Source: a virus
IMG/VR virus record: IMGVR_UViG_3300026097_000010
Span: 88,483-152,482 of that record
Length of the DNA: 64,000 bases
Direction: 5' to 3' (one strand)
Shown here: piece after piece, positions 40,607 through 58,782 of the stretch
Layout of the letters: every line of letters begins with the position of its first letter
Numbering within the stretch: position 1 is the stretch's first letter
Notes under the pieces: generated by a model
What the model was told of the DNA's origin: nothing
Databases searched by the model: none
What the model saw: the letters and a program-made list of their open reading frames with translations, nothing else
Position numbers and translations under genes: made by a program

Positions 40607-41544
40607 TGGCATTAGGCGGTGATATTGAAGCTCTCGATTACAATACTATTCGAGAAAAAATAAGTGAAGTTTTAGGAACTGGCGCAGGAACATACGGCTA
40701 CGGTCAATCTTTACAGAGTAGCGCAGTGTTTTCTGGAGACACCATTACAAAAGCACAATGGAACAATTTAAGATTTGATATATTAAACACACTAATACAT
40801 CAACGTGGAACAGGATCCTTGGTTGAGATAGCGGACAGTCAATTAATCGATGATACTGCAGCCGATCCGGTAATAAACTTTAATACACAGACAGATCTAG
40901 CTAGACTCAATAGATTTAACATAGACACTACCAGACGAACGGTTTCGGCTATCGGCTCGGGTAATGCTACACCTACTCCGGTAGAAGGAGAATATGTTTA
41001 TTCATCTCCTTGGAGTAGTCTTTTAGAAATAGAATTAACATGTACCTTTAATAATTCAAATGAAGCAAGGTATTTTTTTAACAGTGGCGGAAAAATTCAA
41101 GTTACTCCGTCGATTGAAGGATTTACTTCTACTCAACAAACCGAAAGTTGGAGTACTTTATTTTCTCAGGTAGGAACTCAATCGTTTGGTGCAGATACTG
41201 ATCCTGCAGTTAATTATTATAGTTTGACAGATCAATATCAAACATACTACCTTGCCACCGCAAGTGCTTCGTATGCAAATAACTCTGTACAGCTGAAAGC
41301 AAAAACAAATGTTGCTGACAATTCGACCGGAACAGCCACTATCTTATACATTAAAGTTTCGTTGGTCGACGGTTATGTTGATCCTGATGTATCATCGCCT
41401 ACAAATAATCCTCCCGATGACGTTGTTGACGGCACGACAAAATTAACATTTACAGAATTAAAAGACGACGGATCTCTACAACCATCCGGAAGCTTTTCTA
41501 TAACCAGCCCGTTTTATAGTTTTGGTTCGTTTTCTGCAAGCTGA
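40606..41544 (+). CDS. Virion structural protein (paralogue A)
   Basis: GYGQ...WNNLRFDI and ARYFFNSGGKIQ shared with the next gene; at the end of the tail operon. Confidence 0.6.
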   Translation: MALGGDIEALDYNTIREKISEVLGTGAGTYGYGQSLQSSAVFSGDTITKAQWNNLRFDILNTLIHQRGTGSLVEIADSQLIDDTAADPVINFNTQTDLARLNRFNIDTTRRTVSAIGSGNATPTPVEGEYVYSSPWSSLLEIELTCTFNNSNEARYFFNSGGKIQVTPSIEGFTSTQQTESWSTLFSQVGTQSFGADTDPAVNYYSLTDQYQTYYLATASASYANNSVQLKAKTNVADNSTGTATILYIKVSLVDGYVDPDVSSPTNNPPDDVVDGTTKLTFTELKDDGSLQPSGSFSITSPFYSFGSFSAS

Positions 41545-41568: not shown

Positions 41569-42633
41569 ATGGCAGGAGTTGGACTTAAAATAAAAGTTGA
41601 TGATTTCAATAATCTACAAGAAGATGTTGAAAAAATCTTAGGTTCTTCGTTTACAACCGATCCTCAGTTTGGTTATGGTCAACCAGTACGAAGTTCTCAG
41701 GTAACTGTATCTGACAAAGTTTCTGTAAGTGATTTTTCTGCATTAAGGGCTGATATTGTTAATATTGCACTTCATCAAACAGGAACCCTTCCAAGTGACG
41801 CCGTTGGCGAAGATAATTTAATTACACCAATTGAAGACGAAATAATAAGATTTGATACCACCGACGAACCTTTTGATCAGTATGTAAATTTAACTACAAC
41901 ATTGCTGTCTAATACATTCGATATAAACGAAAATTATCGACAAACAGTTAATATATTAGTTGATTCTGACGATCCGGATACAGAAACACCTATTTTAAGG
42001 AACTGGGATCCTGCACTAGGAGAGCAATGGGGTGTTGAAGATACCGGAATAGAAGTAACTGTAACTGTGGATTTTTCATCGGCTGGCGCCGCCCGTCATT
42101 TTTTTAACAGTGGCGGAAAAATTCAATTCAGTTCTAGAAGATACGGCGGAACTGTTAGTGGCGGCACACAAACTATCCGAGCCCAAAACGAAAACTGGTC
42201 AAATTTCTTATTACTTAATGTAGGCACAAGAGAATTTGGAGGCAACACACCCGGAACAGGAGTGTCTCCAAGTAACGGACTAAATTTTTATAGATTAAGA
42301 AGCACCTATCAAGATCCTTTTGTAGATTTATCATCTTCGAGTGTGTACTCAAACAACTATTTTCAAATTTGGGCCAGAACGCCCGATGTTGCTGATAACG
42401 ACGACGGAGAAGCCAAAACTATAGAATTTACAGTTCGATGGATTGACGACCATGTTCCTATACTCGATTCTCCGGTCGATGGTGTTGACGGCACAATTGA
42501 ATTGTACATCCAATCTTTAGAGCCAGTTCAAACTTTATTTCCTAGCGGCCAGTGGGAAGTAGAAAGACCGACTATAACAAGTTTCACAGATATTACAACT
42601 GTAGATCCATCAAATCGTTCAGCCACTCCTTAA
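41569..42633 (+). CDS. Virion structural protein (paralogue B)
   Basis: GYGQ...LRADI and ARHFFNSGGKIQ; preceded by GTAAATA at 41557-41563. Confidence 0.6.
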   Translation: MAGVGLKIKVDDFNNLQEDVEKILGSSFTTDPQFGYGQPVRSSQVTVSDKVSVSDFSALRADIVNIALHQTGTLPSDAVGEDNLITPIEDEIIRFDTTDEPFDQYVNLTTTLLSNTFDINENYRQTVNILVDSDDPDTETPILRNWDPALGEQWGVEDTGIEVTVTVDFSSAGAARHFFNSGGKIQFSSRRYGGTVSGGTQTIRAQNENWSNFLLLNVGTREFGGNTPGTGVSPSNGLNFYRLRSTYQDPFVDLSSSSVYSNNYFQIWARTPDVADNDDGEAKTIEFTVRWIDDHVPILDSPVDGVDGTIELYIQSLEPVQTLFPSGQWEVERPTITSFTDITTVDPSNRSATP

Positions 42634-42648
42634 AATTTATCTACCAAG

Positions 42649-42683
42649 TTGACATAATATAAATAATATGCTACTATTATAAT
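42649..42683 (+). promoter_or_regulatory. Composite promoter: sigma70 consensus with nested gp55 late promoter
   Basis: TTGACA (42649-42654)-N17-TACTAT (42672-42677) with extended TG; perfect TATAAATA at 42658-42665 in the spacer; SD AGGAG downstream. Confidence 0.75.
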
Positions 42684-42698
42684 GTAGGAGTATATTAT

Positions 42699-43052
42699 AT
42701 GGATGAACGCTTAAAAAATGCACTAGAGTTCGCAAATTATCGACAAACACTGTCGGCACAACGAAAGATTCTTAAAGAAAAAAGTCAAGCAAAGTTAACA
42801 TATGGATTTAACGGTGGTCTTTTTAAAATCGATCAAACGCTAATTAACTTTATTTTTACATTAGAATCTGCAGGAAGAATTACAAATGTAGTAATTTTAG
42901 ATTCTAATGAAAACCCGATTTTAATTGAAGATTTGAATAAGTTTAAAGACGAAGTGTTTGACAGATATTTCACTGTAACTAATGAATATTATGAAGAATA
43001 CAAGAAAATTAAATCTAGTAGAACAATAGAAAAACTTATTAGTTATGAATAA
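42699..43052 (+). CDS. Hypothetical protein (first gene of modification operon)
   Basis: 117-aa ORF with AGGAG SD; no recognisable motif. Confidence 0.7.
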   Translation: MDERLKNALEFANYRQTLSAQRKILKEKSQAKLTYGFNGGLFKIDQTLINFIFTLESAGRITNVVILDSNENPILIEDLNKFKDEVFDRYFTVTNEYYEEYKKIKSSRTIEKLISYE

Positions 43053-43908
43053 GGGTGTTGTTCTGTTTGCGCATAATAATAGAAAAATTGACTATGCACT
43101 AATGTCTGTAATTTCCGGCGGATTTGCAAAAAAACATCTGAAAGTTCCTGTTAGTTTAATTACTGACAGTTCTACGCTTGACTGGATGAAAAAATCTAAA
43201 ATTTATTCTAAAGCTAAATCTGTTTTTGATAAAATTATATTAACTGATCGCCCCGAAACTAATAATAATAGAATTTTATATGACGGTCTTGAAAAAGACG
43301 TTGTGCCTTTCAATAATAGTAATAGATCATCTGTGTGGGAATTAACACCCTATGATAGAACACTCTTAATAGACAGTGATTATTTAATTATGTCTCAAGA
43401 TTTATCAAAATATTGGAGTGTCGACTCGGATTTATTAATTTCCTCAGCCATAAATGATCCAATCGGTGATAAAAGAACCGGATATTTAGATAAACATGTT
43501 TCTGCGACTGGTGTAAAATTATTTTGGGCAACGACAGTTATGTTTACCAAAAACGAAAAAACAAAAAAGTTTTTTGAAACAGTAGATCTAATAAAAGAAA
43601 AATACAATATGTTTAGCGACATTTACAGATTTAGTAATACCCAGTATAGAAATGATATCAGTTTCAGTATTGCTAAACATATTTTTGATGGTTTTCAAGA
43701 ATTATACTCGTATGATTTGCCAGAAGTGTTGACGTTTACTGATAAAGATATTTTACAAGAAGTTACTAAAACTGGAGATCTAATATTTTTAGTAAGCGAA
43801 ACATTTAATGATAACTATTTTCCAATTTTAATTAAAGATCGAGACGTACACATTATCAATAAACAGAGTATTACTAGACATTCTAAAAAATTGTTGGATC
43901 TTATATGA
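43045..43908 (+). CDS. Glycosyltransferase-like protein (GT-A fold, GT8-like)
   Basis: TPYDRTLLIDSDYL DxD motif, RND motif, N-terminal GVVLFA strand. Confidence 0.6.
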   Translation: MNKGVVLFAHNNRKIDYALMSVISGGFAKKHLKVPVSLITDSSTLDWMKKSKIYSKAKSVFDKIILTDRPETNNNRILYDGLEKDVVPFNNSNRSSVWELTPYDRTLLIDSDYLIMSQDLSKYWSVDSDLLISSAINDPIGDKRTGYLDKHVSATGVKLFWATTVMFTKNEKTKKFFETVDLIKEKYNMFSDIYRFSNTQYRNDISFSIAKHIFDGFQELYSYDLPEVLTFTDKDILQEVTKTGDLIFLVSETFNDNYFPILIKDRDVHIINKQSITRHSKKLLDLI

Positions 43909-44744
43909 ATTTTGGATACTTGCTCTTTGTATCAGATCACGATACTATTGATTACACCAAGCTTGCGTATGCTTTAGCCCTTAGTATCAAGGGTACACAA
44001 AAGCCAGGTTATGATAAAGTAGCACTAGTAATAGATAATCCTGACAGGTTGCATGAGCTAAACAGCTCATGGGTGTTTGACGAAGTTATCGAATGGAGTG
44101 AGCAAGCAGGATGGGATGGAAGATCATGGATGGACAAACTAAGTCCTTGGGAATACACCGTTTGTTTAGATTCCGATATGTTATTTTTGCGTGATTACAG
44201 TCACTGGATTGATTATTTTATCGAAAATACAGAATTATATGTTTCTAATAAAAGTTATACATACAGAGGACACAAAGTTACTAACGATTACTATAGGAAA
44301 ACATTTACAAAAAATGATCTTCCGAATTTGTATAGCTTTTATACATTTTTTAAAAAAAATAGTAATTTATCACAGGAATTTTTTGAATTAGGTAGATATA
44401 TAATTAAAAATCCTATAGAATTTTCAAATAAATTTCTATCAAAATTGAAACCTAAGGTAATAGGAACAGATGAAGCATTTTCTTTAAGTGCTAAAATTCT
44501 AGACATTCAAGATGAAATTGCGTATGATTTAGAATTTCCAAAAGTTTTACATATGAAAGGACAAATACAGGATTTTCCGTTTCCTGCAGAGTTAGTATCG
44601 GATCACTTAGGGTTTTATTTCGATTCAAATTGCAATTTAAAAGTAGGAAACTATCAGCAGACCGATATTATACACTACGTTGAAAAAGACAAAATAACTT
44701 TAGAAGTTTTGCATTTATTAGAGAAAAAAGTATGGAAGATCTAG
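43905..44744 (+). CDS. Glycosyltransferase-like protein (GT-A fold), paralogue of the preceding gene
   Basis: SPWEYTVCLDSDMLF DxD motif; GTDEAF; LHMK; IHYVEK. Confidence 0.6.
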   Translation: MNFGYLLFVSDHDTIDYTKLAYALALSIKGTQKPGYDKVALVIDNPDRLHELNSSWVFDEVIEWSEQAGWDGRSWMDKLSPWEYTVCLDSDMLFLRDYSHWIDYFIENTELYVSNKSYTYRGHKVTNDYYRKTFTKNDLPNLYSFYTFFKKNSNLSQEFFELGRYIIKNPIEFSNKFLSKLKPKVIGTDEAFSLSAKILDIQDEIAYDLEFPKVLHMKGQIQDFPFPAELVSDHLGFYFDSNCNLKVGNYQQTDIIHYVEKDKITLEVLHLLEKKVWKI

Positions 44745-45358
44745 AGGATATTGGAAGATTAATTAAGGAGTATATATCACAAGAAGTCTCATACTCAGCA
44801 GAATTTAATATAAAAACAGGAAGAGTTGTTAGAGTAGGACCTAGTCATGGGTTTAATTTAGAAAACAAAAATGTAATATCAGTCGACGACGAAATAGCCG
44901 AAAAAATATTATCTGGAGGGCTTTCAATATCTAATTGTTTTGTAGATATTGTAAATGAAACCTTCGAAATCATAGAAACAAAAAGTCTAAGCAAGTTGGA
45001 CGATTTGCTTCATAGGATAATGTATATAGAACATGCTAATATAGAATCTCCTGATTTATATGTGCTGTATGAAAATAATTCTTTGATTGTTGAATTATCA
45101 GAAGAATTAGGAGGATCATATAAGTTATCTAAAAATTTAAACCCGATCAAAAAAAGAAAACTATTGTGGTCGGGCGACACCGATGTAAGCTTTCTTTTAA
45201 CTAGTTATAATGATCCTCATATTGTATTTGATGAATATCAATGCTCATTGCAAGATTTATTAAAAGGGCCTGTTATATTTGATGATGTTAAATTTTCTAA
45301 TAATAATAGCTTATACACTAAAAGATTGTTTAAAAATTATGTAATGGAGATTAAATGA
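44732..45358 (+). CDS. Hypothetical protein
   Basis: 208-aa ORF overlapping its neighbours within the operon. Confidence 0.65.
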   Translation: MEDLEDIGRLIKEYISQEVSYSAEFNIKTGRVVRVGPSHGFNLENKNVISVDDEIAEKILSGGLSISNCFVDIVNETFEIIETKSLSKLDDLLHRIMYIEHANIESPDLYVLYENNSLIVELSEELGGSYKLSKNLNPIKKRKLLWSGDTDVSFLLTSYNDPHIVFDEYQCSLQDLLKGPVIFDDVKFSNNNSLYTKRLFKNYVMEIK

Positions 45359-46242
45359 AGATATTGGATTTTGATATAATATTCCTAAGTTATGATGAGC
45401 CGAATGCAGAAGAACATTATGCAGATTTGTGTAATAAATTACCGTGGGTACAACGTATTCACGGAGTAAAAGGATCTGATGCTGCACATAAGGCAGCAGC
45501 CGAACTAAGTGAAACTGACTGGTTTATAACAATTGATGCTGACAACATAGTTCGTCCCTCATTTTTCGACTTAGATTTAGATATGAGTGATCCGAATATA
45601 GAAGTGTATGGTTGGTGCGGACGTAATAATATTAACGGTCTTCGGTACGGAAACGGAGGCCCTAAGATCTGGAAGAAAGATTTTGTTTTAAATATGAAAA
45701 CACACGAAGCTGCCGAAACAGAAAATGCTCAAGTAGATTTTTGTTGGGAAGCTGGATATAAAAATTTTCCAGTAACCTACAGTGATAGTATAATAAATTC
45801 TACACCTTTTCAAGCATGGCGAGCAGGTTTTAGAGAAGGTGTTAAAATGACACTCAAGGACGGTATTAAAGTACCTCCTCAAGAAATACAACAACATATT
45901 TGGTGGCACAATATACATCGTCTGCGTATGTGGTCAACCGTAGGCTCTCATGTCGAAAACGGAAAATATGCGATTCTTGGAGCTCGCCAAGGAACTCATA
46001 TGACTAACTGTACTGATTGGAATCATGTGCAAGTTAGAGATTTTGAATATCTTAAGGAACTATATAAAGAAATAGTAGAACCTTTAGAAAATAATATTGA
46101 TTCGAAAATTGAACATTTAGGAAAAGAGATTAAGTACGGTCTGGGATTAGATTGGCCAGATTTTGATGCAAGACAGAGCCAATACACACTAGATTTATAT
46201 GAAGAAACACTAAACCTAGGTATAACTTATTATAATGTATGA
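45355..46242 (+). CDS. Glycosyltransferase-like protein (GT2-like GT-A fold)
   Basis: DIIFLSYDEPNA, RIHGVKG...AH.AAA, FITIDADN DxD, YGNGG, AWRAGFREG. Confidence 0.65.
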   Translation: MKILDFDIIFLSYDEPNAEEHYADLCNKLPWVQRIHGVKGSDAAHKAAAELSETDWFITIDADNIVRPSFFDLDLDMSDPNIEVYGWCGRNNINGLRYGNGGPKIWKKDFVLNMKTHEAAETENAQVDFCWEAGYKNFPVTYSDSIINSTPFQAWRAGFREGVKMTLKDGIKVPPQEIQQHIWWHNIHRLRMWSTVGSHVENGKYAILGARQGTHMTNCTDWNHVQVRDFEYLKELYKEIVEPLENNIDSKIEHLGKEIKYGLGLDWPDFDARQSQYTLDLYEETLNLGITYYNV

Positions 46243-47578
46243 TATATTGTTTGTTGGTAACGATGAAAAACAATTTAAACAACTGAGTAAGTGTTATCCT
46301 AACAGCCAGTGGGTAACATTCAACGACTTCGACGACCTCAAAAAACAATCATTTACAAAACATTTTTGGTTGGTTCATGATGACTATAATATAGTAGAAA
46401 CCTTTAATCTAAATTCATACAAGATCGATAAATGGGATTCTCAATACCATCATGTGTTTTTAAACGATAATGAATATGACGGATTAGTTCTATTAAATAA
46501 AACCCTAACCGTATCTACTAAGGAATTAAAACATAGATTTTATACAAACCAAAAAAAAATAGAAAAAAAAGTATCCTTGCCGAAAAAATTCGATATTTTT
46601 AGTGTTAAAAATTACGATGATTATTTAGAAATTTATAATCAGGTTGATAAAGATCTTTTTTGGATTGTGTTTGATGACTTAACCGTTGTTGAAGATTTTG
46701 ATTTTTCTTTTTATATTCCTCATCATAATTTTGCAGATCGTAAACAAAATCATATCTTTTTAAACGATAATGTTTTTGATGGAATTATACTTGCCAGTAG
46801 ATATAAGAAGATTTCTAAAAAAGAGTTCGAATACAGATTTTTAATTAGTAAAAAAGAAATTAATATAAAGGCAAGTATACCTAATCCTTTTGATATAGTT
46901 TTTATATCATATGAAGAACCTAATGCAGAAGATAATTATAAAGATCTACAACAGCGATTTCCTAACGTAAAGCGGGTACATGGTGTTAAAGGTATTCACC
47001 AAGCACACATCGCCGCAGCAAAGCTCTGTGACACCAAAATGTTTTGGGTAGTTGACGGCGATGCAAAAATTGTGGAAAATTTTAATTTTAATTACCAAGT
47101 AGCAGCATGGGATAAAAATGTAGTTCATGTTTGGCGAAGTAAAAACCCAATCAATGATCTTGTTTACGGATACGGCGGCATTAAATTACTACCAAGAGAT
47201 TTAACAATAAATATGGATACTTCAAAGCCCGACATGACTACTAGTATCAGTAGTAAATTTAAACCAGTAAACGAAATATCTAATATTACAGAATTTAATA
47301 CTGATCCATTTAATACCTGGAAGTCTGCATTTAGAGAATGTGCTAAGTTAGCTAGTAAAACCATACAAGGACAAATTGATGAAGAAACAGAACAGCGGTT
47401 ACAGGCCTGGACAACACAAGGCAGAGAACGGAGATTCGGAGATACCGCAATTCGAGGAGCAAGACTTGGTAGTGTTTTCGGTAGTACTAATAGGAATAAT
47501 CCTGCTGAGCTTGCTCTTATAAATGATTTTGATTGGCTTAAACAAGAATTTATTAAAAGTGAAGTAAATGAACAGTGA
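46235..47578 (+). CDS. Glycosyltransferase-like protein with two degenerate N-terminal GT-like repeats
   Basis: C-terminal domain is paralogous to 45355..46242 (DIVFISYEEPNA, FWVVDGDA, WKSAFREC); N-terminal FWLVHDD...HVFLND...DG and FWIVFDD...HIFLND...DG repeats. Confidence 0.65.
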   Translation: MYDILFVGNDEKQFKQLSKCYPNSQWVTFNDFDDLKKQSFTKHFWLVHDDYNIVETFNLNSYKIDKWDSQYHHVFLNDNEYDGLVLLNKTLTVSTKELKHRFYTNQKKIEKKVSLPKKFDIFSVKNYDDYLEIYNQVDKDLFWIVFDDLTVVEDFDFSFYIPHHNFADRKQNHIFLNDNVFDGIILASRYKKISKKEFEYRFLISKKEINIKASIPNPFDIVFISYEEPNAEDNYKDLQQRFPNVKRVHGVKGIHQAHIAAAKLCDTKMFWVVDGDAKIVENFNFNYQVAAWDKNVVHVWRSKNPINDLVYGYGGIKLLPRDLTINMDTSKPDMTTSISSKFKPVNEISNITEFNTDPFNTWKSAFRECAKLASKTIQGQIDEETEQRLQAWTTQGRERRFGDTAIRGARLGSVFGSTNRNNPAELALINDFDWLKQEFIKSEVNEQ

Positions 47579-48947
47579 ATTAGAACAAATAAAAAACATT
47601 ATTCCTATAACAAATCAGGAAGTTAGTAATACTTTTTGCATGGCAAAGTGGCATCACACAACTATATATCTGCAAACAGGAGAGACACATAGTTGTTATC
47701 ATCCTCCCCCTCACAAAATTCCTCTAGATGAAATTCAAGAGGATCCTAGTGCGTTGCATAATACAAAAGAGAAAAAAGAACAACGTAAGCAAATGTTGCA
47801 GGGAAATAAACCAAGCGGTTGCAATTACTGTTGGAAAATTGAAGAAATGGGAGAAGACTATATTAGCGATCGTCACATAAAAACAGCTAGTATATATACT
47901 CCTGAAAGGTTGCAGGAAATAAAACAAGGCAATTTTGATTATAATATCAATCCTGAATATATTGAAATTAGTTTTTCTAACGAGTGCAATTTTAAATGCG
48001 GCTATTGTCATCCCAAAGCTAGCAGCCGATATTGGAATGAAATTAACAAATATGGTCCTTACGATGTTAGTACAGATCATAGACAGGATATTGATTGGTT
48101 TGATGTATTTCATAAAGAAGAAGAAAATCCTTATGTAGATGCTTGGTGGAAATGGTGGCCTGAAGTTAGTAAAACATTAAACATTTTACGCATTACTGGA
48201 GGAGAGCCTTTAATGCATCGGAGCACATGGGAATTGTTTGATAGATTAGACCGAGACCCTAAGCCACACATTCAAATTGAATTAAACAGTAATTTGGGAG
48301 TAAAATCTAAACTGGTTGAAAAATTAGTAGAGCGTGTTACCAAGCTTAAAACAGAAAATAAAATTCGCAGTTTTAAACTTTATACCAGCATCGATACTTG
48401 GACAACTCGTGCAGAGTATACCAGAACAGGATTAGATATAAATCTCTGGGAACGTAACTTAGATTATTACTTGTCTAATACTGGCTGGCCTGTAACATTT
48501 ATGATTACATTTAATTTGTTCAGTGTGACTAGCTTTAATTCGTTGCTTGAGAAAATTCTAGAATGGCGAAAAAAATATAATACTGATGACAACAGTACTC
48601 AATGGCAGCGTGTAAGATTCGACACTCCTCATTTAAAAGAACCTAGTATATATGATATGAATATACTTCCTAAAACAGAGTTTATGCCTTACATGCATAT
48701 GCATCTAGAGTTTATAAAAAATAATATAGATGATGATAATCGTACTAAGTTTACCTCTATTGAGTACGAAAAGTTTAAGCGTGTGGTTGATTATATGGAG
48801 AAAACAGTGTATCATGATAATAAATTACAAGAGTCAAGAAGAAATTTTTCCAGATGGTTTGATGAACACGACAAGAGAAGAGCGGTTAACAAAGAAGAAA
48901 TTTTTCCAGAAATGAAAGATTTTTTTGAATTGTGTCGCCAACAGTAG
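47568..48947 (+). CDS. Radical SAM enzyme with N-terminal twitch/SPASM-like cysteine domain
   Basis: CNFKCGYC, ITGGEP; N-terminal FCMAKW...SCYH...GCNYC. Confidence 0.9.
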   Translation: MNSELEQIKNIIPITNQEVSNTFCMAKWHHTTIYLQTGETHSCYHPPPHKIPLDEIQEDPSALHNTKEKKEQRKQMLQGNKPSGCNYCWKIEEMGEDYISDRHIKTASIYTPERLQEIKQGNFDYNINPEYIEISFSNECNFKCGYCHPKASSRYWNEINKYGPYDVSTDHRQDIDWFDVFHKEEENPYVDAWWKWWPEVSKTLNILRITGGEPLMHRSTWELFDRLDRDPKPHIQIELNSNLGVKSKLVEKLVERVTKLKTENKIRSFKLYTSIDTWTTRAEYTRTGLDINLWERNLDYYLSNTGWPVTFMITFNLFSVTSFNSLLEKILEWRKKYNTDDNSTQWQRVRFDTPHLKEPSIYDMNILPKTEFMPYMHMHLEFIKNNIDDDNRTKFTSIEYEKFKRVVDYMEKTVYHDNKLQESRRNFSRWFDEHDKRRAVNKEEIFPEMKDFFELCRQQ

Positions 48948-48955
48948 GAAACAAA

Positions 48956-49498
48956 ATGATATTAAAACCTTTAAAATTGGATTATAATTTTGATGTTTTT
49001 TTAAATGCAGATTATAGTGTTCATTACGGTAGTTGTATATCGTACCAAAAAAAAGAACAAAGCGATCTGCATGAAAAATTTGGTACAGGATTTCCTGATA
49101 GCTATCATGAAGATAATACCAGAATACAACAACTTTGGTGGACCGATGACCAAATCGATTATAAAGAACTTGGGAATCAACTCGGAATGAAAGTAATTAC
49201 AGTCAGTACTATTCTTCAACCTCCAGGAAATGTAGTAACCTTACATCGCGACATGTTTTTTCAAATCAATAAACAATATCCTAATGACAAAAGAACTAAA
49301 GTTAGAGCTAACATTTATTTAGAAGATTGGAAAGTAGGACATTTTTTACAATATACAGATGGAAAAAAATGGCATTCGCACACCGATTGGAAACAAGGAC
49401 AAGGATGGCTTTGGGATAGCGAGCCTTTGCATCTTAGTGCAAATGCCGGACTCGAGCCAAAATATACATTGCAAGTGAGCGGATTTTATAATGCATGA
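48956..49498 (+). CDS. Cupin / 2OG-Fe(II) oxygenase-like protein (Asp/Asn beta-hydroxylase-like)
   Basis: H-x-D...H triad (LHRD ... LHLSANAG); start placed at ATG 48956 after AGGA. Confidence 0.6.
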   Translation: MILKPLKLDYNFDVFLNADYSVHYGSCISYQKKEQSDLHEKFGTGFPDSYHEDNTRIQQLWWTDDQIDYKELGNQLGMKVITVSTILQPPGNVVTLHRDMFFQINKQYPNDKRTKVRANIYLEDWKVGHFLQYTDGKKWHSHTDWKQGQGWLWDSEPLHLSANAGLEPKYTLQVSGFYNA

Positions 49499-51869: not shown

Positions 51870-53058
51870 TAAACATTTTTGTATGATACCGTGGATACAT
51901 ATGCATCTTTGGCCAGCCGGTACCACGTATCCGTGTTGCATGTCCGATCCAGATCTACCAATTGGCGATACTCAAACACAAAGTTTGCAAGAAATTTGGA
52001 ACGGTGAACAACTACGAACAATACGACAAAACATGCTGGCTGATAAACCTAGCCCGGAATGCCGACGCTGTTATGAACTGGAAGAGAATAACATGTGGAC
52101 CTTGCGCAACAGTTCAAACGTTAACTTCAAACATCATTACGATAAAGTAATTGCTACTGATAAGGATGGTTATGCCGGCGAGGTTAATATGGCATATATG
52201 GATATACGCTTTTCGAACCTGTGCAATTTAAAATGTCGTTCTTGCGGTCCGCAATTTTCTTCAAGTTGGTTTGAAGATCACAAAGCCACAAACGGTGATC
52301 CGGGACATCCTAAGATATTAAAGGTTCGAGATGACATGCTTAATTTCATGGACGAATTAGAACCGCTATTAACGTCTGTAGAGCGTGTGTATTGGGCCGG
52401 CGGCGAACCGCTTATTACAGATGAGCACTATAGAATTTTAGATTTTTGGATAGCACACGGAATGCACGATGTGAAATTGGACTATACTACTAATTTTACA
52501 CAAATGCGTTTTAAAAAGAAAACAATTTTTGATTATTGGAACGCATTTAAAAATGTCCGGGTTGCGGCAAGCTTAGATGCAAACCATGCAAGAGGCGAAT
52601 ATCTTAGAAAGAACATGGATTGGTCTCAAGTTGTTCAAAACAGACGCGACATGATTGAACAATGCCCTCACGTATATTTTGAATTGACACCTACAGTAAG
52701 TGTGTATAATGTATTGAATCTTCCAGACTTTCACAAAGAATGGGTCGAAGAAGGATTATTAGAACCCGCAAATGTTAGAATTAACATTTTGCTAGATCCA
52801 ACCTACATGCGATTGCAGATACTACCTGAAAAAATAAAAGATAAAGTTCGCCGTAGATATGACGATCATATAAAATATTTGAGATCTTTCAATGGCACAG
52901 AAGAAGCAATACAAAATTATAAAAATATACTCCAGTTTTTAGAAACAGACCGAAGCGACGAAATTCTAATGTGGCAATATAAGACTGAGAAAATTGACAA
53001 GTTACGCAATGAAAAAGTGTTTGATGTTTTTCCAGAATTGGGGGATATTAATGTATAA
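51862..53058 (+). CDS. Radical SAM enzyme with N-terminal twitch/SPASM-like domain
   Basis: FCMIPW...PCC...CRRC; CNLKCRSC; AGGEP. Confidence 0.9.
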   Translation: MNNKHFCMIPWIHMHLWPAGTTYPCCMSDPDLPIGDTQTQSLQEIWNGEQLRTIRQNMLADKPSPECRRCYELEENNMWTLRNSSNVNFKHHYDKVIATDKDGYAGEVNMAYMDIRFSNLCNLKCRSCGPQFSSSWFEDHKATNGDPGHPKILKVRDDMLNFMDELEPLLTSVERVYWAGGEPLITDEHYRILDFWIAHGMHDVKLDYTTNFTQMRFKKKTIFDYWNAFKNVRVAASLDANHARGEYLRKNMDWSQVVQNRRDMIEQCPHVYFELTPTVSVYNVLNLPDFHKEWVEEGLLEPANVRINILLDPTYMRLQILPEKIKDKVRRRYDDHIKYLRSFNGTEEAIQNYKNILQFLETDRSDEILMWQYKTEKIDKLRNEKVFDVFPELGDINV

Positions 53059-55264
53059 TAAATCTCAAAAAACATTTTTTGAGTTAGGAGATGATAATTG
53101 GACCCCACCACCAAAACCATCTGGAGTTACCGCGGAAGATAAACATGTTGCTACGTTAGAAGCAATGCAACAATATGCGAAACCACCGCAGAAGAATTTG
53201 GAAGATCTGTCTATTGAATATTCAGTAGATCGTAAAACAAAAATATCTATGGTACTGTGTCCGGAATGGGATCCTGCATTTGTTCCTTATAATATTGCAA
53301 AACTAGCAGGTGCATTAAAGTCTGCAGGATATTTTTGTAAATGCTATGACCTTAATGTGGAAAGTTATTACAAATATAATCAAGATAAACAGAATAACCT
53401 TTTAAATAATAAAATAGATTATTTTCCTTGGGATCCTATGCGAGACTGGCACTGGATCGGAGACAAATATTATAACGAACTCCATGAATACATAGAACCT
53501 ATACTTGAGGATTGTGCTCAAAAAATTGTATATGAAGACGAAGCCGATGTTGTAGGATTTACTTTGTATTATTGTAATGAAGAACCTAGTAAATGGCTAG
53601 CAAATAGAATTAAGGAATTAAATCCTAAAATCAAAATAGTTGTAGGAGGACCTCATACTCACTCCAGTCATTATTATGGTGATAAAATTTTTGACATAGT
53701 AGTAAATGGCGAAGGCGAAAAATCTTTGCTGTCAATTTTAGAAAGGTTAGAATCGGAAAATGAAATAATTGCAACAGATTCGCTCCCTAATACCGGAGTG
53801 CCTGTAATAAGACAGCCAGAAAAGGAGATTACTAATCTCAGCACAATGCCAAGACCTTATTACGGCGATTTTGATTTTAAAAAGTATAAGTTTCCTAACG
53901 GTGCCTTGTGTGAAATTAGCAGGGGGTGTGTTGCTAAATGTGTATTTTGTGACGAAACTCATTTTTGGAAATATAGACAGAGAACAGCAATCTCCACACT
54001 TGAAGAAATAGAACATATGTACTATGAACACGGTGTTAATGTATTTTGGTTCATAGACAGTTTGGTTAACGGCAATCTAAACGAACTTAGAGCATTTGTT
54101 AAAGGAGTTGCCGCAAAGGGATTGGAAATTAACTGGACTGGATATGCAAGATGCAATGGTAAAATGGATCTTGAATACTTTAAAGATCTAAAAGCAGGCG
54201 GGTGCTCTCTTTTAAATTATGGAATTGAAAGCGGAAGTCAGAAAGTTTTAGACGACATGGATAAAAAAGTCACTGTAGAAGAAATGGAGCAAAACTTCAT
54301 TGACGGCGAGAAAGTTGGCATAGGTGCAATGACAAACTGGATTGTGGGATTTCCAAGTGAAGGCCCAAAAGAATTTGAAGATACCTTAACTTTTCTTTGG
54401 AGGATTAAAGATAAAAAACTAGAAGCGATCGCCCAAGGTCCGGGATTCAATGTCGGAGTAGATACTATTGTTGGACAGAATTTTGACAGATTTAATTTAC
54501 AAGATCATTATTATTTTGATCATTGGATCACAAAAGATTTCAAACACAGCATCATGCATAAAATGATCAAAATGAAGTGTTTCAGTATTTTTACAGATTA
54601 TCTTCCGACAAAGTATTCGTGTGCAAAACCACACAGACCCGAGCTAGCAAAACGTCATTATAAAATACGGTTTGACAATCCTAATAAAGAAAAACAGGTT
54701 GAATATAACTATGAAGATTTTGATTATGAAATTATAAAACCTGGCCTTGGCAATTTTGCAGATAGCGTGATAAATGTAATATGGCCCTTTTTGAGAATAT
54801 TGTGGAGAACACGAGGCGGCTATCAATTGCATTTGATTTTTGATAAAGAGTTAGACAGACAAGAATGGGGAGAACGCGGCTCTGCTCCGCTGGATGCTGT
54901 TTATAATTTTATCATAGACGATTCGGGAAATTGGCAGGCAGACTTCAGTTTTGATTATCAGCAACCCAAATACACTGACTGGAACGATGAGAAAATTGAC
55001 ATGGGCAACGGCGAATACAGAATCGAACCCGACACAATGGGACCAGTGTGGAGTCTTATGGAGTTTAGTCAGCATACAAGCAATTCTGTGGTCCGTGCTA
55101 GGAAATTAGCGTGGAAAGGTGACGAATCGAAAAAACATAGAGATCCGCACAATGCGTTTGATATAGAGGAGTTTATTCGTAAAAAAGAATTTTTTCACAA
55201 AAATAGAGATTTAGATCTCAGTTTCAGTTTTGATTGGCAAGGAAACGGTTCATGGAAGAAATAA
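53051..55264 (+). CDS. Cobalamin (B12)-binding radical SAM enzyme (class B methyltransferase-like)
   Basis: B12-binding domain (DVVGFT, KIVVGGPH, GEGE); SRGCVAKCVFC; GIESGSQKVL..M.K; IVGFP.E. Start is ATG 53051 after GGGGA. Confidence 0.88.
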   Translation: MYNKSQKTFFELGDDNWTPPPKPSGVTAEDKHVATLEAMQQYAKPPQKNLEDLSIEYSVDRKTKISMVLCPEWDPAFVPYNIAKLAGALKSAGYFCKCYDLNVESYYKYNQDKQNNLLNNKIDYFPWDPMRDWHWIGDKYYNELHEYIEPILEDCAQKIVYEDEADVVGFTLYYCNEEPSKWLANRIKELNPKIKIVVGGPHTHSSHYYGDKIFDIVVNGEGEKSLLSILERLESENEIIATDSLPNTGVPVIRQPEKEITNLSTMPRPYYGDFDFKKYKFPNGALCEISRGCVAKCVFCDETHFWKYRQRTAISTLEEIEHMYYEHGVNVFWFIDSLVNGNLNELRAFVKGVAAKGLEINWTGYARCNGKMDLEYFKDLKAGGCSLLNYGIESGSQKVLDDMDKKVTVEEMEQNFIDGEKVGIGAMTNWIVGFPSEGPKEFEDTLTFLWRIKDKKLEAIAQGPGFNVGVDTIVGQNFDRFNLQDHYYFDHWITKDFKHSIMHKMIKMKCFSIFTDYLPTKYSCAKPHRPELAKRHYKIRFDNPNKEKQVEYNYEDFDYEIIKPGLGNFADSVINVIWPFLRILWRTRGGYQLHLIFDKELDRQEWGERGSAPLDAVYNFIIDDSGNWQADFSFDYQQPKYTDWNDEKIDMGNGEYRIEPDTMGPVWSLMEFSQHTSNSVVRARKLAWKGDESKKHRDPHNAFDIEEFIRKKEFFHKNRDLDLSFSFDWQGNGSWKK

Positions 55265-56472
55265 GTAAAACTTTTTGTGTATATCCTTGGATAAACGTTC
55301 ATACAAATACTGATGGCAGGTGTAAATTGTGTTGTCATGTTTACACTGAAGATTATGTACAGGTCAACGGAAAAGATGCTATCTTAGGCGTAGATGAATT
55401 TGATGATATTTGGACGGGCGACAATATGACAAAAATACGTCGCAAAATGCTCTCTGGAGAAAAAGTTAAAGCATGTAAAAGATGTTATGAGCACGAAGAA
55501 AAAGGCCTAGAAAGTAGTAGGCAATGGGCCAATAAAAATTACCCTATTTCCTCTACAGAGGTATATAATCCTACACATCTAGAATTACGTTTAGGAAATC
55601 ATTGCAATCTCAAATGTAATAGTTGTTGGAGTGTTAGTAGTGATAATATCTATAAAGAACGCAAAAAAATTATTGCTAGCGATACCATTCCGGATTGGTT
55701 ATCAGATCAATGGAATCATGAAATTAACAGCGTAGAAAAATTCAACTGGCAATGGTTCGAAACAGACCAATTTAAAATGTTCGTAGACAGGGTCGCTCCA
55801 ACACTTAAACGTCTGTATTTGACCGGTGGCGAACCTACCCTTATAAAAGCAAATCAGTATGTAATTGACAAACTGGTTGAGTCTGGAAACAAAGACTGTT
55901 ATGTGTGCTGGACCACAAATATGACTATCTGGCCCGAAGAATTTTATGATAAGTTAGAATTTTTTAACTCGAGTGAAATACAGATGAGCATTGATGGTTA
56001 TAAAGACGCAAACATGTATATTAGATATCCAACAGATTGGGATAAGTTAGAAACTAATTTTGCAAAAGCCCAAAAATTACCTAGTAAAGTAGCACTTAAA
56101 ATATATTTTGTTTATCAAGCATGGAATGTGTTTGATGTAGGAAATTTGCTAGAATGGCTCGAAGAAAATCAAACAAGGCGTATCGATTTTGTTCCTATTT
56201 TTCTAGAGCACCCTGATCAATTACACAGTTCAGTATGGCCAACGCATGTGCAAACTGAAATTGTAAATTATCTTAAATCAATCGAAACAGCACGTCATCG
56301 AGATGCATTAGATAGAATTATTAACTACGCGGTTAATACTGATAAATATTCTGTTGAACAAATGCAAAGAATGAATCAGTTTATTAAAATAAATGATAGG
56401 CACAGAAAGTATAGCTTTGCAGACATTTTCCCCTATCTAAATCAAATACTGGAAAAAGAATGCAAGATATAA
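55252..56472 (+). CDS. Radical SAM enzyme with N-terminal twitch/SPASM-like domain
   Basis: FCVYPW...LCC...CKRC; CNLKCNSC; TGGEP. Confidence 0.9.
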   Translation: MEEISKTFCVYPWINVHTNTDGRCKLCCHVYTEDYVQVNGKDAILGVDEFDDIWTGDNMTKIRRKMLSGEKVKACKRCYEHEEKGLESSRQWANKNYPISSTEVYNPTHLELRLGNHCNLKCNSCWSVSSDNIYKERKKIIASDTIPDWLSDQWNHEINSVEKFNWQWFETDQFKMFVDRVAPTLKRLYLTGGEPTLIKANQYVIDKLVESGNKDCYVCWTTNMTIWPEEFYDKLEFFNSSEIQMSIDGYKDANMYIRYPTDWDKLETNFAKAQKLPSKVALKIYFVYQAWNVFDVGNLLEWLEENQTRRIDFVPIFLEHPDQLHSSVWPTHVQTEIVNYLKSIETARHRDALDRIINYAVNTDKYSVEQMQRMNQFIKINDRHRKYSFADIFPYLNQILEKECKI

Positions 56473-57452
56473 AAGCAATTATACCCGCTAAAGAAAAATG
56501 GTGCAGTATAGTATGGCAAGTAAACGATTGGTGCAACTATCGATGCTCCTATTGCAATGAATGGAATTGGGGCGGCCGAAACAAAAATGAAGACGAAATT
56601 AAAGTTATTGTCGAAACACTTGAAAGGATAGTTGAACATTATCAGAGTAAAGGTTATAGATATTTTAAACTTTTTTTAAGCGGCGGCGAGCCAACTTTCT
56701 GGAAAGGGCTGATTCCTGTTGTAGAAAAATTTAGAGAAAAGGTAGAATGGCCTGGAAGTTGTGTAGGAATCAACACCAATCTTTCCAAATCTCTAAATTG
56801 GTGGAAAGGCCATCATTATCTATTTGAGGATGTAGTTGCTAGCTATCATCCCGAATTTTCCAAAGAACAAAAATATATTGAGACATTTAAATTTCTACAA
56901 GACAAAAAGAATTATTTGTGCTCGCGTGTTATGATGCAAAAAGAAAACTTCATACAGTGTATAGATTTTGCTGAAAAACTCAAGTCGGAGTGCGATAATT
57001 ATATCATTGAATATGCACCTGTTTACGATCAACTTAGACCGGATGCAGAACCTTTTCATTATGACGAGGATTGGCATGTCGAATGGCTAAAAGAAAACAG
57101 TTATGAAAAGGTACAAACTGTGCCAATTAAAAAAGATCCCAATTATGCATACGCCAGAACCTGGTTCGAAGATGACACAATAACTCCTATAAACACAAAT
57201 AATATTATAGTACACGGAAAGAATTTTTTCAAAGGATGGTTTTGTAATATCCATGAAAGTTTGCATATTCATCCAAACGGAAACATTCAACAAGCAAGTT
57301 GCGGTGTAGGTCCGATTGTTGGTAATATCGTAAAAGGTGAATTTGATAAAAGTAGCACACAAGGAGTTTGGTGTCCCAAGAATCATTGTCATTGTGCAGC
57401 AGATTTTAACATTTCCAAAGCAAGGCCCGAGCATGTCGATAAAATACAATAA
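56460..57452 (+). CDS. Radical SAM enzyme with C-terminal cysteine-rich domain
   Basis: CNYRCSYC; SGGEP; C-terminal C...SC...CPKNHCHC. Confidence 0.88.
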   Translation: MQDIKAIIPAKEKWCSIVWQVNDWCNYRCSYCNEWNWGGRNKNEDEIKVIVETLERIVEHYQSKGYRYFKLFLSGGEPTFWKGLIPVVEKFREKVEWPGSCVGINTNLSKSLNWWKGHHYLFEDVVASYHPEFSKEQKYIETFKFLQDKKNYLCSRVMMQKENFIQCIDFAEKLKSECDNYIIEYAPVYDQLRPDAEPFHYDEDWHVEWLKENSYEKVQTVPIKKDPNYAYARTWFEDDTITPINTNNIIVHGKNFFKGWFCNIHESLHIHPNGNIQQASCGVGPIVGNIVKGEFDKSSTQGVWCPKNHCHCAADFNISKARPEHVDKIQ

Positions 57453-58782
57453 TATTAAAGACTCAACATATTGTTTTTTTGCAATGCATAGTTTTAGTGT
57501 GCATGCACACGGCAAAGCGCGGGCTTGTTGTGTTAGCAGAGACAAGAGCAAGTCATATCTTGAAGGTTATAATGATCTAATAAGCCTCAAAGATGTGCAT
57601 GGCAGTAGTCAGTATAAAGTCGTTCATTCGCTCGATGATTTTGTAAACGATCCTGTATTAATGCAAATGCGGAAAGATATGCTAGAAGGAATCCGCCCAG
57701 AAGCATGTACCAGATGTTGGAATTTAGAAGAGCAAGGAATTAAAAGTTTTAGACAAATTAACAACACTACTTACTCTGATTTAATAGATACTGATTTATC
57801 TAACATAGATGAAGACGGTAGAATGAACATATCGAGTATTAAATATCTTGATATTACATTGGGAAATGTATGTAATCTCAAATGCAGAAGTTGCAATCCG
57901 TGGAACAGTCATCGTTGGATAGAAGAAGGTCCTCATTTACCACACAACGGGTGGACTGAAAGTGCATATAACACAGGAAGATTAAGCTCCGAAGCACCTT
58001 GGTTTGCTCGAGCGTTTGCCGAAGGATTGTTCGATGATGTGTTGTCTAATATAACCAGTATAAACTTTTTAGGTGGCGAACCGCTGGTTGTAGAGGAACA
58101 TTACGAGTGGTTACAAAAAATAATCGAAATGGGTCACGCAAACCATATCAATTTATATTATAATACAAATGCAACAACCATTCCAGACAAATTATACGAT
58201 ATATGGAAAGAATTTAATGGTGTAAATCTAGGTATAAGCATTGATGCTATAGGAGATTTAGCATATTATGTTCGGCATCCGAGTAAGTGGAAGGTGATCG
58301 AACGAAATATGCTTAAATTGGCAGAGTTTACAAAACAGCATAAAAATATATTTGTGCAGATGCATAGCACATTAAGCTGTCTAAACCTGCACGATCTTCC
58401 TAATCTTTTAGAATGGTCTCGACAAAATTATGAAGCTTGGCACTATACATGGAAATGGGGAAATTACGGTTACCAAAATTGTATCCCCCATTTTAACATA
58501 GTTGAATATCCTTCTTTTATGCATATTAAGCACCTGCCAGATGAAATAAAAGAATCTTTAAACAATATGTTAGATCGAGAATATGAAAAATATTCGAATA
58601 TGAACCTAAATGAATGGGAGTATTCGAGTTTGGATAACATAATTGGTATTAAAAATACGCTAAATCAAGAAAGAGATTCAAGCGAATGGAAAAAATTTAT
58701 AGAAAATACAAAGGCAAGCGATAATTTTAGAAGTTTAAATATTGTCGATTATGTACCTTGGATGGAACCCTACTTAAAATAG
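57433..58782 (+). CDS. Radical SAM enzyme with N-terminal twitch/SPASM-like domain
   Basis: YCFFAM...ACC...CTRC; CNLKCRSC; LGGEP. Likely start is ATG 57433. Confidence 0.9.
   Translation: MSIKYNNIKDSTYCFFAMHSFSVHAHGKARACCVSRDKSKSYLEGYNDLISLKDVHGSSQYKVVHSLDDFVNDPVLMQMRKDMLEGIRPEACTRCWNLEEQGIKSFRQINNTTYSDLIDTDLSNIDEDGRMNISSIKYLDITLGNVCNLKCRSCNPWNSHRWIEEGPHLPHNGWTESAYNTGRLSSEAPWFARAFAEGLFDDVLSNITSINFLGGEPLVVEEHYEWLQKIIEMGHANHINLYYNTNATTIPDKLYDIWKEFNGVNLGISIDAIGDLAYYVRHPSKWKVIERNMLKLAEFTKQHKNIFVQMHSTLSCLNLHDLPNLLEWSRQNYEAWHYTWKWGNYGYQNCIPHFNIVEYPSFMHIKHLPDEIKESLNNMLDREYEKYSNMNLNEWEYSSLDNIIGIKNTLNQERDSSEWKKFIENTKASDNFRSLNIVDYVPWMEPYLK

What the first reader, a model, noticed from the sequence alone, without database searches (positions are those of the whole stretch)
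42699..58782. 16-kb tail-linked biosynthetic cluster: 4-5 glycosyltransferase domains, an oxygenase and seven radical SAM enzymes
Seen: 14 co-oriented, overlapping or abutting genes directly follow the tail genes behind a promoter containing a perfect late TATAAATA. They include seven CxxxCxxC enzymes (one B12-dependent), four DxD GT-like genes, a GT-rSAM fusion and an HxD..H oxygenase. Known: twitch-type radical SAM enzymes such as BtrN oxidise sugars/aminocyclitols, class B enzymes methylate unactivated carbons, and some phages glycosylate virion proteins. Inference: this is a phage-encoded assembly line that builds and then radically tailors a glycan, on the virion (tail/fibres), on DNA or on the host surface. 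I know of no characterised pathway with this composition.
Basis: partly seen in the sequence, partly recalled or inferred. Interest (0 to 1): 0.82.

Follow-up and report, generated by a model that had tools for sequence, protein, structure and literature searches.

The report
Jumbo-phage radical-SAM sugar-tailoring gene island
Right after its tail-fibre genes, an uncultured giant phage carries a 16-kb operon of soluble sugar-transferring enzymes, one iron oxygenase and seven radical-SAM enzymes; it most likely builds and chemically edits an unusual sugar chain, but its product and target have never been tested.

Summary
42699-58782 carries 14 co-oriented, overlapping genes, and seven have a single CxxxCxxC motif. 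Five are paralogues of NCBIfam NF033640 (radical SAM with an N-terminal twitch domain). One is a B12-binding class B enzyme and one is a small radical SAM. g2 and g3 are GT8-like. g5 and the C-terminal half of g6 have a GT-A fold with DxD. g8 is a 2OG-Fe(II) oxygenase fold with HxD...H. g9 fuses a GT10-like domain to a twitch radical SAM.

The glycan reading has independent support. Related phage clusters add GT7, carbamoyltransferase, DegT aminotransferase and methyltransferase genes. A Bdellovibrio chromosomal island of the same radical SAM family also holds UDP-sugar dehydrogenases, epimerase/dehydratases, GT2 genes and a g9N homologue.

The core order (fibre, u, g1, g2, g3, x, g5, g7) recurs in 15 diverged loci, including cultured Ralstonia phage RsoM2USA. 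The target is unresolved: virion fibres are favoured, and host envelope or DNA remain possible. A fibre link in Bdellovibrionales was tested and failed.

The late promoter is unproven. A similar arrangement is described as the "host recognition cluster" of pelagimyophages. This scan found the same island type on at least eight other genomes.

The parts
40606..41544 (+). u1, a 312-aa fibre-associated protein of unknown fold family and a paralogue of u2. A u-like gene precedes g1 in related loci.
   Evidence: There are no Pfam, PHROG or NCBIfam hits. Among 50,697 phage records the u family was found only in RsoM2USA.
41569..42633 (+). u2, a 354-aa paralogue of u1 (shared motif AR[YH]FFNSGGKIQ).
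42649..42677 (+). Promoter-like spacer: TTGACA-17-TACTAT overlapping TATAAATA (42658-42665), 34 nt upstream of the g1 ATG.
   Evidence: These are motifs only.
42699..43052 (+). g1, a 117-aa soluble protein of unknown function and the first gene of the conserved core.
43045..43908 (+). g2, a GT8-like glycosyltransferase with an invariant DxD (D110, D112).
43905..44744 (+). g3, a GT8-like glycosyltransferase and paralogue of g2.
   Evidence: (glycogenin, E 3e-4).
44732..45358 (+). g4, a 208-aa unknown protein in a variable slot between g3 and g5.
   Evidence: weakly similar to RsoM2USA gp351. Other relatives have an unrelated ~120-aa protein here.
45355..46242 (+). g5, a GT-A-fold transferase with an invariant D61-x-D63. 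It is the most conserved non-radical-SAM gene in the cluster.
46235..47578 (+). g6: two degenerate N-terminal half-copies of the GT-A core plus a complete g5-like domain (residues 219-447).
47568..48947 (+). g7, an N-terminal-twitch radical SAM (NF033640). It is the paralogue that belongs to the conserved core.
   Evidence: (306 bits).
48932..49498 (+). g8, a 2OG-Fe(II)-type oxygenase (DSBH fold, HxD...H). Probable start at 48956.
49491..51869 (+). g9, a fusion of a GT10-like domain (residues 1-400) with an N-twitch radical SAM (residues 401-791).
   Evidence: (380 bits).
51853..53058 (+). g10, an N-twitch radical SAM.
   Evidence: (394 bits).
52994..55264 (+). g11, a class B (B12-binding) radical SAM. 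Probable start at 53051.
   Evidence: TokK, E 9e-7.
55234..56472 (+). g12, an N-twitch radical SAM.
   Evidence: 306 bits.
56460..57452 (+). g13, a small radical SAM with a Cys-rich C-terminus. It is distantly STM4011-like and scores below that family's cutoff.
57337..58782 (+). g14, an N-twitch radical SAM. The start is uncertain (GTG 57337 or ATG 57433).
   Evidence: (326 bits).

Best explanation
This is a phage-encoded, wholly cytoplasmic module that assembles a short glycan and then edits it by radical chemistry. The core operon appears to be co-transcribed with the tail-fibre genes.

Proposed steps:
- Two GT8-like transferases (g2, g3), two GT-A transferases (g5, g6) and a GT10-like domain (g9N) transfer sugars from host nucleotide-sugars onto a soluble acceptor.
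- The 2OG-Fe(II) oxygenase (g8) hydroxylates the acceptor or a sugar.
- Five anciently diverged N-terminal-twitch radical SAM enzymes (g7, g9C, g10, g12, g14) and a small radical SAM (g13) abstract hydrogen from unactivated sugar carbons. The possible outcomes are oxidation, epimerisation, dehydration or decarboxylation.
- The B12-dependent enzyme (g11) adds methyl groups.

The most likely acceptor is a virion protein of the fibre apparatus: the fibres themselves or the u1/u2 proteins. The result would be a decorated adsorption organelle.

What is shown: the gene content, the family and fold assignments, the conserved synteny, and the association with sugar enzymes. What is inferred: that the radical SAM substrates are sugars, the order of steps, and the acceptor. 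My estimates are P(glycan-related) about 0.75 and P(glycan and virion target) about 0.35.
For: Transferases:
- The g3 profile hits glycogenin, a GT8 enzyme, and g2 is its paralogue.
- The g5 model matches GT-A enzymes, including PBCV-1 A64R, the capsid glycosyltransferase (Foldseek E 1e-5; Z 8-9.5 over residues 1-150). Its DxD is invariant.
- g6C is a g5 paralogue.
- g9N carries the [ST]E..FITEKT motif, and the nearest Pfam-bearing Atlas clusters are GT10 (score 0.83, weak).

Fusion: g9N and a twitch radical SAM are fused here but are separate neighbouring genes in relatives.

Sugar genes in related clusters: relatives add GT7 x2, carbamoyltransferase, DegT aminotransferase, a SAM methyltransferase, a cytidylyltransferase-like gene and SGNH-like genes.

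Bacterial parallels:
- The radical SAM island of Bdellovibrio sp. HCB2-146 holds two UDP-Glc/GDP-Man dehydrogenases, two NAD epimerase/dehydratases, GT2 genes and a g9N homologue.
- Halobacteriovoraceae loci pair a g7 homologue with two GT2 genes and a g5 homologue.

Solved relatives: the twitch domain aligns with BtrN's auxiliary-cluster domain, and BlsE (a sugar decarboxylase) is among the top hits.

None of the 14 proteins has a transmembrane segment.

Virion target:
- The order fibre-u-g1-g2-g3-x-g5-g7 is kept in 15 loci at 25-50% identity, including RsoM2USA gp355-348.
- In the phage database the u family occurs only where the module does.
- The nearest solved folds to g8 are protein prolyl and aspartyl hydroxylases.
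Against: - No glycan, acceptor or activity has been observed anywhere.
- No Pfam or NCBIfam model recognises g1-g6, g8 or g9N. The transferase calls rest on weak profile and fold matches (TM 0.3-0.5, pLDDT about 72).
- The best solved sequence relatives of the twitch radical SAMs include RiPP maturases (TvgB, SkfB) and nucleotide enzymes (viperin, MoaA). A sugar substrate is therefore not implied by homology.
- The window has no nucleotide-sugar biosynthesis gene.
- GT8 LPS-core enzymes are also soluble, so the lack of membrane proteins does not exclude a host-envelope target.
- In the closest relatives (L001-L010) the radical-SAM-rich block lies away from g1-g6. Only the core is fibre-linked.
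- Xanthomonas jumbo-phage records match the baseplate wedge protein but not g3, g5 or u2. The module is therefore accessory.
Confidence: 0.38

Rival explanations
1. Host-envelope remodelling. The enzymes alter the infected cell's LPS core, O-chain or capsule. This would block superinfection or stop progeny from adsorbing to debris. This is how the pelagimyophage 'host recognition cluster' glycosyltransferases were interpreted.
For: PMC7029224 describes tail-fibre-linked islands rich in GT8 and LPS-type genes, with radical SAM proteins elsewhere in those genomes, and proposes host O-chain modification. GT8 includes soluble LPS-core transferases (established knowledge). The homologous Bdellovibrio islands look like surface-glycan islands, with UDP-sugar dehydrogenases, epimerases and GT2 genes and GT-C-like membrane proteins in L060 and L071.
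Against: None of the 14 proteins is a flippase, polymerase, ligase, priming transferase or membrane protein. Tight, conserved translational coupling downstream of fibre genes is not needed for a host-modifying function. The carriers examined here are large lytic-type myoviruses, and no integrase or lysogeny gene was looked for.
Confidence: 0.2
2. Radical maturation of a protein or peptide with little or no glycan (RiPP-like). The radical SAM enzymes and the oxygenase would cross-link, epimerise, methylate or hydroxylate residues of a fibre-associated protein such as u1/u2, g1 or the fibres.
For: The top solved relatives of the twitch radical SAM profile are the RiPP enzymes TvgB (8vpo, E 3e-9) and SkfB. 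The best NCBIfam hit for g11 is a RiPP C-methyltransferase (1e-30, below cutoff). g8 resembles protein prolyl hydroxylases. Small conserved proteins (g1, slot x) sit in the operon.
Against: No RiPP recognition element (RRE) domain or precursor-like small ORF was found, and the genes abut with no room for one. There are five transferase-like domains and a transferase-radical SAM fusion. Genuine sugar enzymes lie in homologous clusters.
Confidence: 0.12
3. DNA hypermodification. The transferases glycosylate a modified base in phage DNA, and the radical SAM and carbamoyl enzymes elaborate it to evade restriction.
For: Phage glycosyltransferases are known to hypermodify DNA with glycans (Pyle et al. 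2024, cited in PMC12619734; PMC13326640). A carbamoyltransferase occurs in a related cluster. Radical SAM enzymes take part in thymidine hypermodification (my own recall, not checked here).
Against: The 152-kb fragment has no thymidylate-synthase-like hydroxymethylase or TET/JBP gene, but it is only 42% complete and the TET search had no positive control. The module sits inside the structural gene block. Homologous radical SAM and sugar islands sit in bacterial chromosomes. PMC13326640 mentions no radical SAM.
Confidence: 0.08

Closest known systems
NCBIfam NF033640, N_Twi_rSAM (twitch domain-containing radical SAM protein)
   Same: g7, g9C, g10, g12 and g14 score 306-394 bits against a cutoff of 170 bits. 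They share the four-Cys N-terminal auxiliary domain, CxxxCxxC and the GGEP motif.
   Different: The family has no assigned reaction or substrate. Here five anciently diverged members (18-37% identical) sit in one operon with transferases, and one is fused to a GT10-like domain.
Host recognition cluster (HRC) of pelagimyophages and cyanomyophages (Zaragoza-Solas et al. 2020, PMC7029224)
   Same: Both are hypervariable islands inside the structural module that mix tail-fibre genes with glycosyltransferases (GT8 is the most common) and sugar genes. Function is unknown in both.
   Different: That work concerns T4-like phages of about 150-200 kb that infect SAR11 and cyanobacteria. This is a Rak2-like jumbo myovirus; its baseplate wedge protein is 34-36% identical to those of Atu_ph07, SCTP-2 and 121Q. 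The paper does not describe a conserved g1-g2-g3-g5-g7 core or the twitch radical SAM arrays, and it favours host O-chain modification.
Virus-encoded virion glycosylation: mycobacteriophage capsid and tail-tube glycans (Freeman et al. 2023, cited in PMC12619734); PBCV-1 A64R; Mimivirus fibril glycosylation (PMC9614988)
   Same: In each case virus-encoded soluble transferases lie beside structural genes. The best Foldseek hit for g5 is PBCV-1 A64R.
   Different: None of those systems contains radical SAM enzymes. No glycan has been shown here.
Sugar-modifying radical SAM enzymes: BtrN (twitch dehydrogenase), BlsE (decarboxylase), and class B C-methylases such as TokK and GenK
   Same: The N-terminal domain aligns with BtrN's auxiliary-cluster domain (E 1.8e-4), and BlsE is a hit at 5e-6. 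g11 aligns with TokK at 9e-7.
   Different: The domain order is permuted, with the twitch domain in front. Overall similarity is low, and equally good hits go to peptide and nucleotide enzymes. None of these enzymes is a close relative.

Membership tests
NF033640 N_Twi_rSAM | Full-length HMM score above the curated cutoff (170 bits) | tested here: met
   g7 305.8, g9 379.8, g10 394.3, g12 306.2 and g14 325.8 bits. g13 scores only 19 bits and is not a member.
NF033640 N_Twi_rSAM | Auxiliary Cys cluster N-terminal to the CxxxCxxC core, plus a SAM-binding GGE motif | tested here: met
   invariant C10, C29, C70, C73, then C124, C128, C131 and G183-G184-E185 (g10 numbering). Pfam places SPASM before Radical_SAM.
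Class B (cobalamin-binding) radical SAM | B12-binding domain followed by a Radical_SAM domain, both above Pfam cutoffs | tested here: met
   PF02310 scores 36.7 bits (cutoff 32.1) and PF04055 scores 54.5 bits (cutoff 29.5). CVAKCVFC lies at residue 312.
Class B radical SAM, named subfamilies (RiPP C-methyltransferase, PhpK, HpnR, BchE and others) | Score above the subfamily's curated cutoff | tested here: not met
   the best score is 104.7 bits against a cutoff of 281.9. All 22 hits are below their cutoffs.
GT8 (glycogenin / LPS glucosyltransferase family) for g2 and g3 | Recognised by the family model or by a solved member, with a DxD motif | tested here: inconclusive
   There is no Pfam hit. 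The g3 profile matches glycogenin at E 3e-4 over the N-terminal 110 residues only. g2 matches g3 at hhalign 98.6%. DxD is invariant in g2, and xSD is conserved in g3.
GT-A fold glycosyltransferase for g5 and g6C | Rossmann-like GT-A fold with a DxD after strand 4 | tested here: met
   Foldseek probability 1.0 to A64R, RmlT and hyaluronan synthase; Z 8-9.5 over residues 1-150, a range also reached by nucleotidyltransferases of the same superfamily. D61-x-D63 is invariant. Model pLDDT is 72.6.
GT10 (fucosyltransferase) for g9N | Recognised by the Pfam PF00852 model or by a solved member | tested here: inconclusive
   There is no Pfam hit and no PDB hit with the profile. The Atlas feature score to GT10-bearing clusters is 0.83. 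The motif TES..FITEKTFK is invariant among relatives.
2OG-Fe(II) dioxygenase for g8 | DSBH fold with an HxD/E...H iron triad | tested here: met
   PHD2, Pseudomonas P4H, AsqJ and AspH at E 1e-5 to 1e-4, TM 0.44-0.53. H105, D107 and H167 are invariant. There is no Pfam hit. The 2OG-binding residue was not identified.
Host recognition cluster (PMC7029224) | Variable island with tail fibres and glycosyltransferases inside the structural module of a T4-like pelagi- or cyanomyophage | tested here: inconclusive
   The position and content fit. The phage lineage differs: it is a Rak2-like jumbo phage.
RiPP radical SAM maturase system | RRE or leader-binding domain and an adjacent precursor peptide gene | tested here: not met
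   No RRE-type Pfam hit was found. There is no intergenic room and no small ORF within 42699-58782.

The most novel reading that the evidence does not exclude
Arrays of N-terminal-twitch radical SAM enzymes could be a new class of glycan editors. Each paralogue would functionalise a different unactivated C-H of a protein-linked oligosaccharide on the phage's receptor-binding apparatus. Their repeated exchange between jumbo phages and predatory Bdellovibrionota would provide a shared toolkit for diversifying or masking adhesive surface structures.
Probability: 0.25. Interest if true: 0.85.

Novelty: new variant of a known kind. Interest (0 to 1): 0.68.

Why it matters
Virus-encoded glycosylation is known, but none of the known systems uses radical SAM chemistry. 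Here seven such enzymes sit with five transferase-like domains. The main radical SAM family (NF033640) has thousands of members in aquatic phages and up to 33 copies in a single Bdellovibrionota genome, and it has no known reaction. The g5 family alone has at least 8000 metagenomic members, all annotated as hypothetical. A minimal version with a single twitch radical SAM exists in the cultured phage RsoM2USA, so the question can be tested directly. Solving it would assign function to several large protein families. It could also reveal new sugar C-H chemistry and a new way for phages to tune adsorption or evade recognition.

Tried and rejected
1. Fibre link in bacteria (tested, rejected). In Bdellovibrio sp. 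HCB2-146 a 1965-aa fibre with a Peptidase_S74 domain lies next to the radical SAM island, and two weaker cases occur in a Halobacteriovoraceae genome. I then searched 41 Bdellovibrionales genomes. S74 was present in 25 and N_Twi_rSAM in 14. Only that one S74 gene, of about 31 in genomes having both, lies within 10 kb of a radical SAM. Genomes with 8-14 fibres have no N_Twi_rSAM. The adjacency is anecdotal.

2. Collagen-like acceptor repeats. The fibres and u1/u2 contain no G-X-Y runs.

3. Recent block capture. Megablast of the cluster against 50,697 phage records found nothing. Bacterial homologues are only 35-56% identical.

4. Late-promoter test. TATAAATA occurs 10 times in the 152-kb record and 3 of these are intergenic. 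This is suggestive only.

5. Bdellovibrionota gene families c2 and c3 that recur beside the radical SAM genes. They show no similarity to window proteins and have no Pfam hit.

6. Profile searches of g5, g2, g8 and g9N against PDB sequences gave nothing usable.

7. The alignment of all paralogues was too diverse for a genome scan.

9. An IQ-TREE run did not finish, so FastTree was used instead.

10. Whether the 49-56% identical 'Pseudobdellovibrionaceae' contigs are chromosomal could not be settled.

Full report
**What is there.** The window is the right-hand 64 kb of a 152-kb IMG/VR phage fragment with an estimated completeness of 42%. Upstream of the finding lie baseplate genes, a 4593-aa ORF and four tail-fibre genes with a shared N-terminus. 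The baseplate wedge protein is 34-36% identical to those of Rak2-like jumbo myoviruses such as Atu_ph07, SCTP-2, 121Q and CBB. From 42699 to 58782 there are 14 plus-strand genes. Each overlaps or abuts the next, and the block ends at a convergent gene. G+C drops from about 38% in the fibre genes to 31-33% over 42-52 kb.

**Radical SAM enzymes.** Seven proteins carry one CxxxCxxC each and hit Radical_SAM.
- Five (g7, g9 residues 401-791, g10, g12, g14) are full-length members of NCBIfam NF033640, 'twitch domain-containing radical SAM protein'. They score 306-394 bits against a cutoff of 170.
- The odd Pfam order, SPASM before Radical_SAM, is therefore a known family architecture and not a gene-calling artefact.
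- Four N-terminal cysteines, the core triad and GGE are invariant across 13 diverse members.
- The five window copies are only 18-37% identical to one another. In a 97-sequence tree they fall in separate old lineages.
- g11 is a B12-binding class B radical SAM, below every named subfamily cutoff. Its best solved relative is TokK.
- g13 is a small radical SAM with a Cys-rich C-terminus.

**The unannotated genes.** Pfam, PHROGs and NCBIfam are silent on g1-g6, g8 and the N-terminal half of g9. I built alignments from related loci to go further.
- The g3 profile matches glycogenin, a GT8 enzyme, at E 3e-4. g2 is its paralogue (hhalign 98.6%).
- g5 modelled at pLDDT 72.6. Its best Foldseek hits are GT-A enzymes, led by the PBCV-1 capsid glycosyltransferase A64R.
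- An independent all-against-all alignment gives Z 8-9.5 over residues 1-150 to GT-A enzymes and related nucleotidyl-transferases.
- The g5 DxD is invariant.
- g6 consists of two degenerate half-copies plus a complete g5-like domain.
- g8 modelled at pLDDT 72.4 as a double-stranded beta-helix. Its nearest folds are prolyl and aspartyl hydroxylases and AsqJ. H105-x-D107...H167 is invariant.
- g9N has an invariant TES..FITEKTFK motif and only a weak Atlas lead to GT10.
- In relatives g9N is a separate gene next to a twitch radical SAM. The window therefore shows a true gene fusion.

**Conservation.** A scan of IMG/VR with g10 returned 26 loci.
- Mapping all window proteins onto them shows a core order: fibre, u-like protein, g1, g2, g3, small variable protein, g5, g7-type radical SAM. 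Further radical SAM paralogues follow. The proteins are 25-50% identical to those in the window.
- The same core lies in phage-like contigs binned into unrelated MAGs.
- It also lies in the cultured Ralstonia jumbo phage RsoM2USA as gp355-348, with only one twitch radical SAM. All of these genes are annotated hypothetical, and the paper describing the phage does not discuss them.
- In total, 15 distinct loci keep a fibre homologue upstream of the core.
- Among 50,697 phage records, g3, g5 and the u family occur only in RsoM2USA.
- The radical-SAM-rich block g9N-g14 travels separately in the closest relatives (L001-L010), so the island is modular.
- The g10 and g5 families have thousands of metagenomic members without names.

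**Why a glycan.** Related clusters carry unambiguous sugar enzymes. These are two GT7 genes, a NodU-type carbamoyltransferase, a DegT aminotransferase fusion, a SAM methyltransferase, and cytidylyltransferase-like and SGNH-like proteins.

A genome scan with the g7 alignment found 79 loci, overwhelmingly in Bdellovibrionota.
- Single genomes hold 14-33 matches arranged in arrays.
- In the isolate Bdellovibrio sp. HCB2-146, the 37-kb array also contains two UDP-Glc/GDP-Man dehydrogenases, two NAD epimerase/dehydratases, several GT2 genes and a g9N homologue.
- Halobacteriovoraceae loci combine a g7 homologue with two GT2 genes, a GT-C-like protein and a g5 homologue.
- The context is heterogeneous: GT2 genes cluster with the radical SAM in 10 of 64 loci.

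All 14 window proteins lack transmembrane segments.

Sequence relatives among solved structures do not discriminate the substrate class. The hits are TvgB, viperin, SkfB, BlsE, MoaA and the twitch domain of BtrN.

**Target.** I tested the attractive idea that the module serves fibres in bacteria too. It failed across 41 Bdellovibrionales genomes. The virion target therefore rests on three things: conserved co-linearity with fibre genes in phages, co-occurrence with the u family, and the protein-hydroxylase-like fold of g8.

The published interpretation of similar islands in pelagimyophages is host O-chain modification. It remains a serious rival, because GT8 LPS-core enzymes are also soluble. 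DNA hypermodification is less likely but not excluded.

**Promoter.** TATAAATA is present at 42658. It overlaps a sigma-70-like site and is not enriched in the window. Three of the ten copies in the whole record are intergenic. Timing is not established.

**Exchange with Bdellovibrionota.** In the tree, phage and Bdellovibrionota sequences interleave, and well-supported branches force at least 13 label changes. The nearest relatives of window g7 are Pseudobdellovibrionaceae sequences at 56% identity. This argues for repeated old exchange, not a recent block capture.

**Standing.** The scan has flagged the same island type on at least eight other genomes. One of those notes pointed me to PMC7029224, which I read. 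No characterised pathway of this composition was found in the literature searches.

Noticed in passing
L108-L109 (G002:C1:740000-779999); G001:C1:1858-1895 kb; Bdellovibrionota genomes carry very large arrays of N-terminal-twitch radical SAM paralogues. One genome has up to 33 matches, about 17 of them in a single 30-kb island. In the tree, phage and bacterial copies interleave. This may be a hint about the host or about gene exchange for this jumbo-phage group.
   Followed up: partly
L059, L070/L073, L085, L088, L087, L091: Contigs with the full fibre-u-g1-g2-g3-g5-g7 phage synteny are deposited inside MAGs labelled Fischerella, Neomarinimicrobiota, Haliscomenobacter, Legionellales and Rickettsiales. 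They are probably mis-binned jumbo-phage contigs; one is 335 kb long.
   Followed up: partly
window 17789-31570 (+): A single 4593-aa ORF lies between the baseplate wedge gene and the tail-fibre genes.
   Followed up: no
window 40606-42633 (+): u1 and u2 are paralogous ~310-350-aa proteins with a shared AR[YH]FFNSGGKIQ motif and no family hit. The Atlas holds a confident model of u1 (pTM 0.85) that resembles only viral hypothetical proteins.
   Followed up: partly
window 42000-52000: G+C falls to 31-33% across g1-g9, against 37-39% in the fibre genes and 35-37% in g10-g14. This suggests the two halves of the island have different histories.
   Followed up: no
P0207 (Pseudobdellovibrio exovorus, 716 aa); also P0142, P0144, P0198, P0203: Some bacterial g7-type radical SAM proteins are about 250 residues longer than usual, which suggests fused forms.
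   Followed up: no
L003:2629-4194 (+): A sodium:solute symporter family gene (PF00474, E 9e-19) lies a few kb upstream of the radical SAM block in a related viral contig.
   Followed up: no
L116:3477-7040 (-) (G005:C7): A 1187-aa protein with five fibrinogen-C domains and a collagen C-terminal domain hit sits beside a 1904-aa S74 fibre in a Halobacteriovoraceae genome.
   Followed up: no
window 60220-60227 (-): A second intergenic TATAAATA lies 4 nt upstream of the ORF at 59946-60215 on the minus strand. A third intergenic copy lies elsewhere in the 152-kb record.
   Followed up: partly
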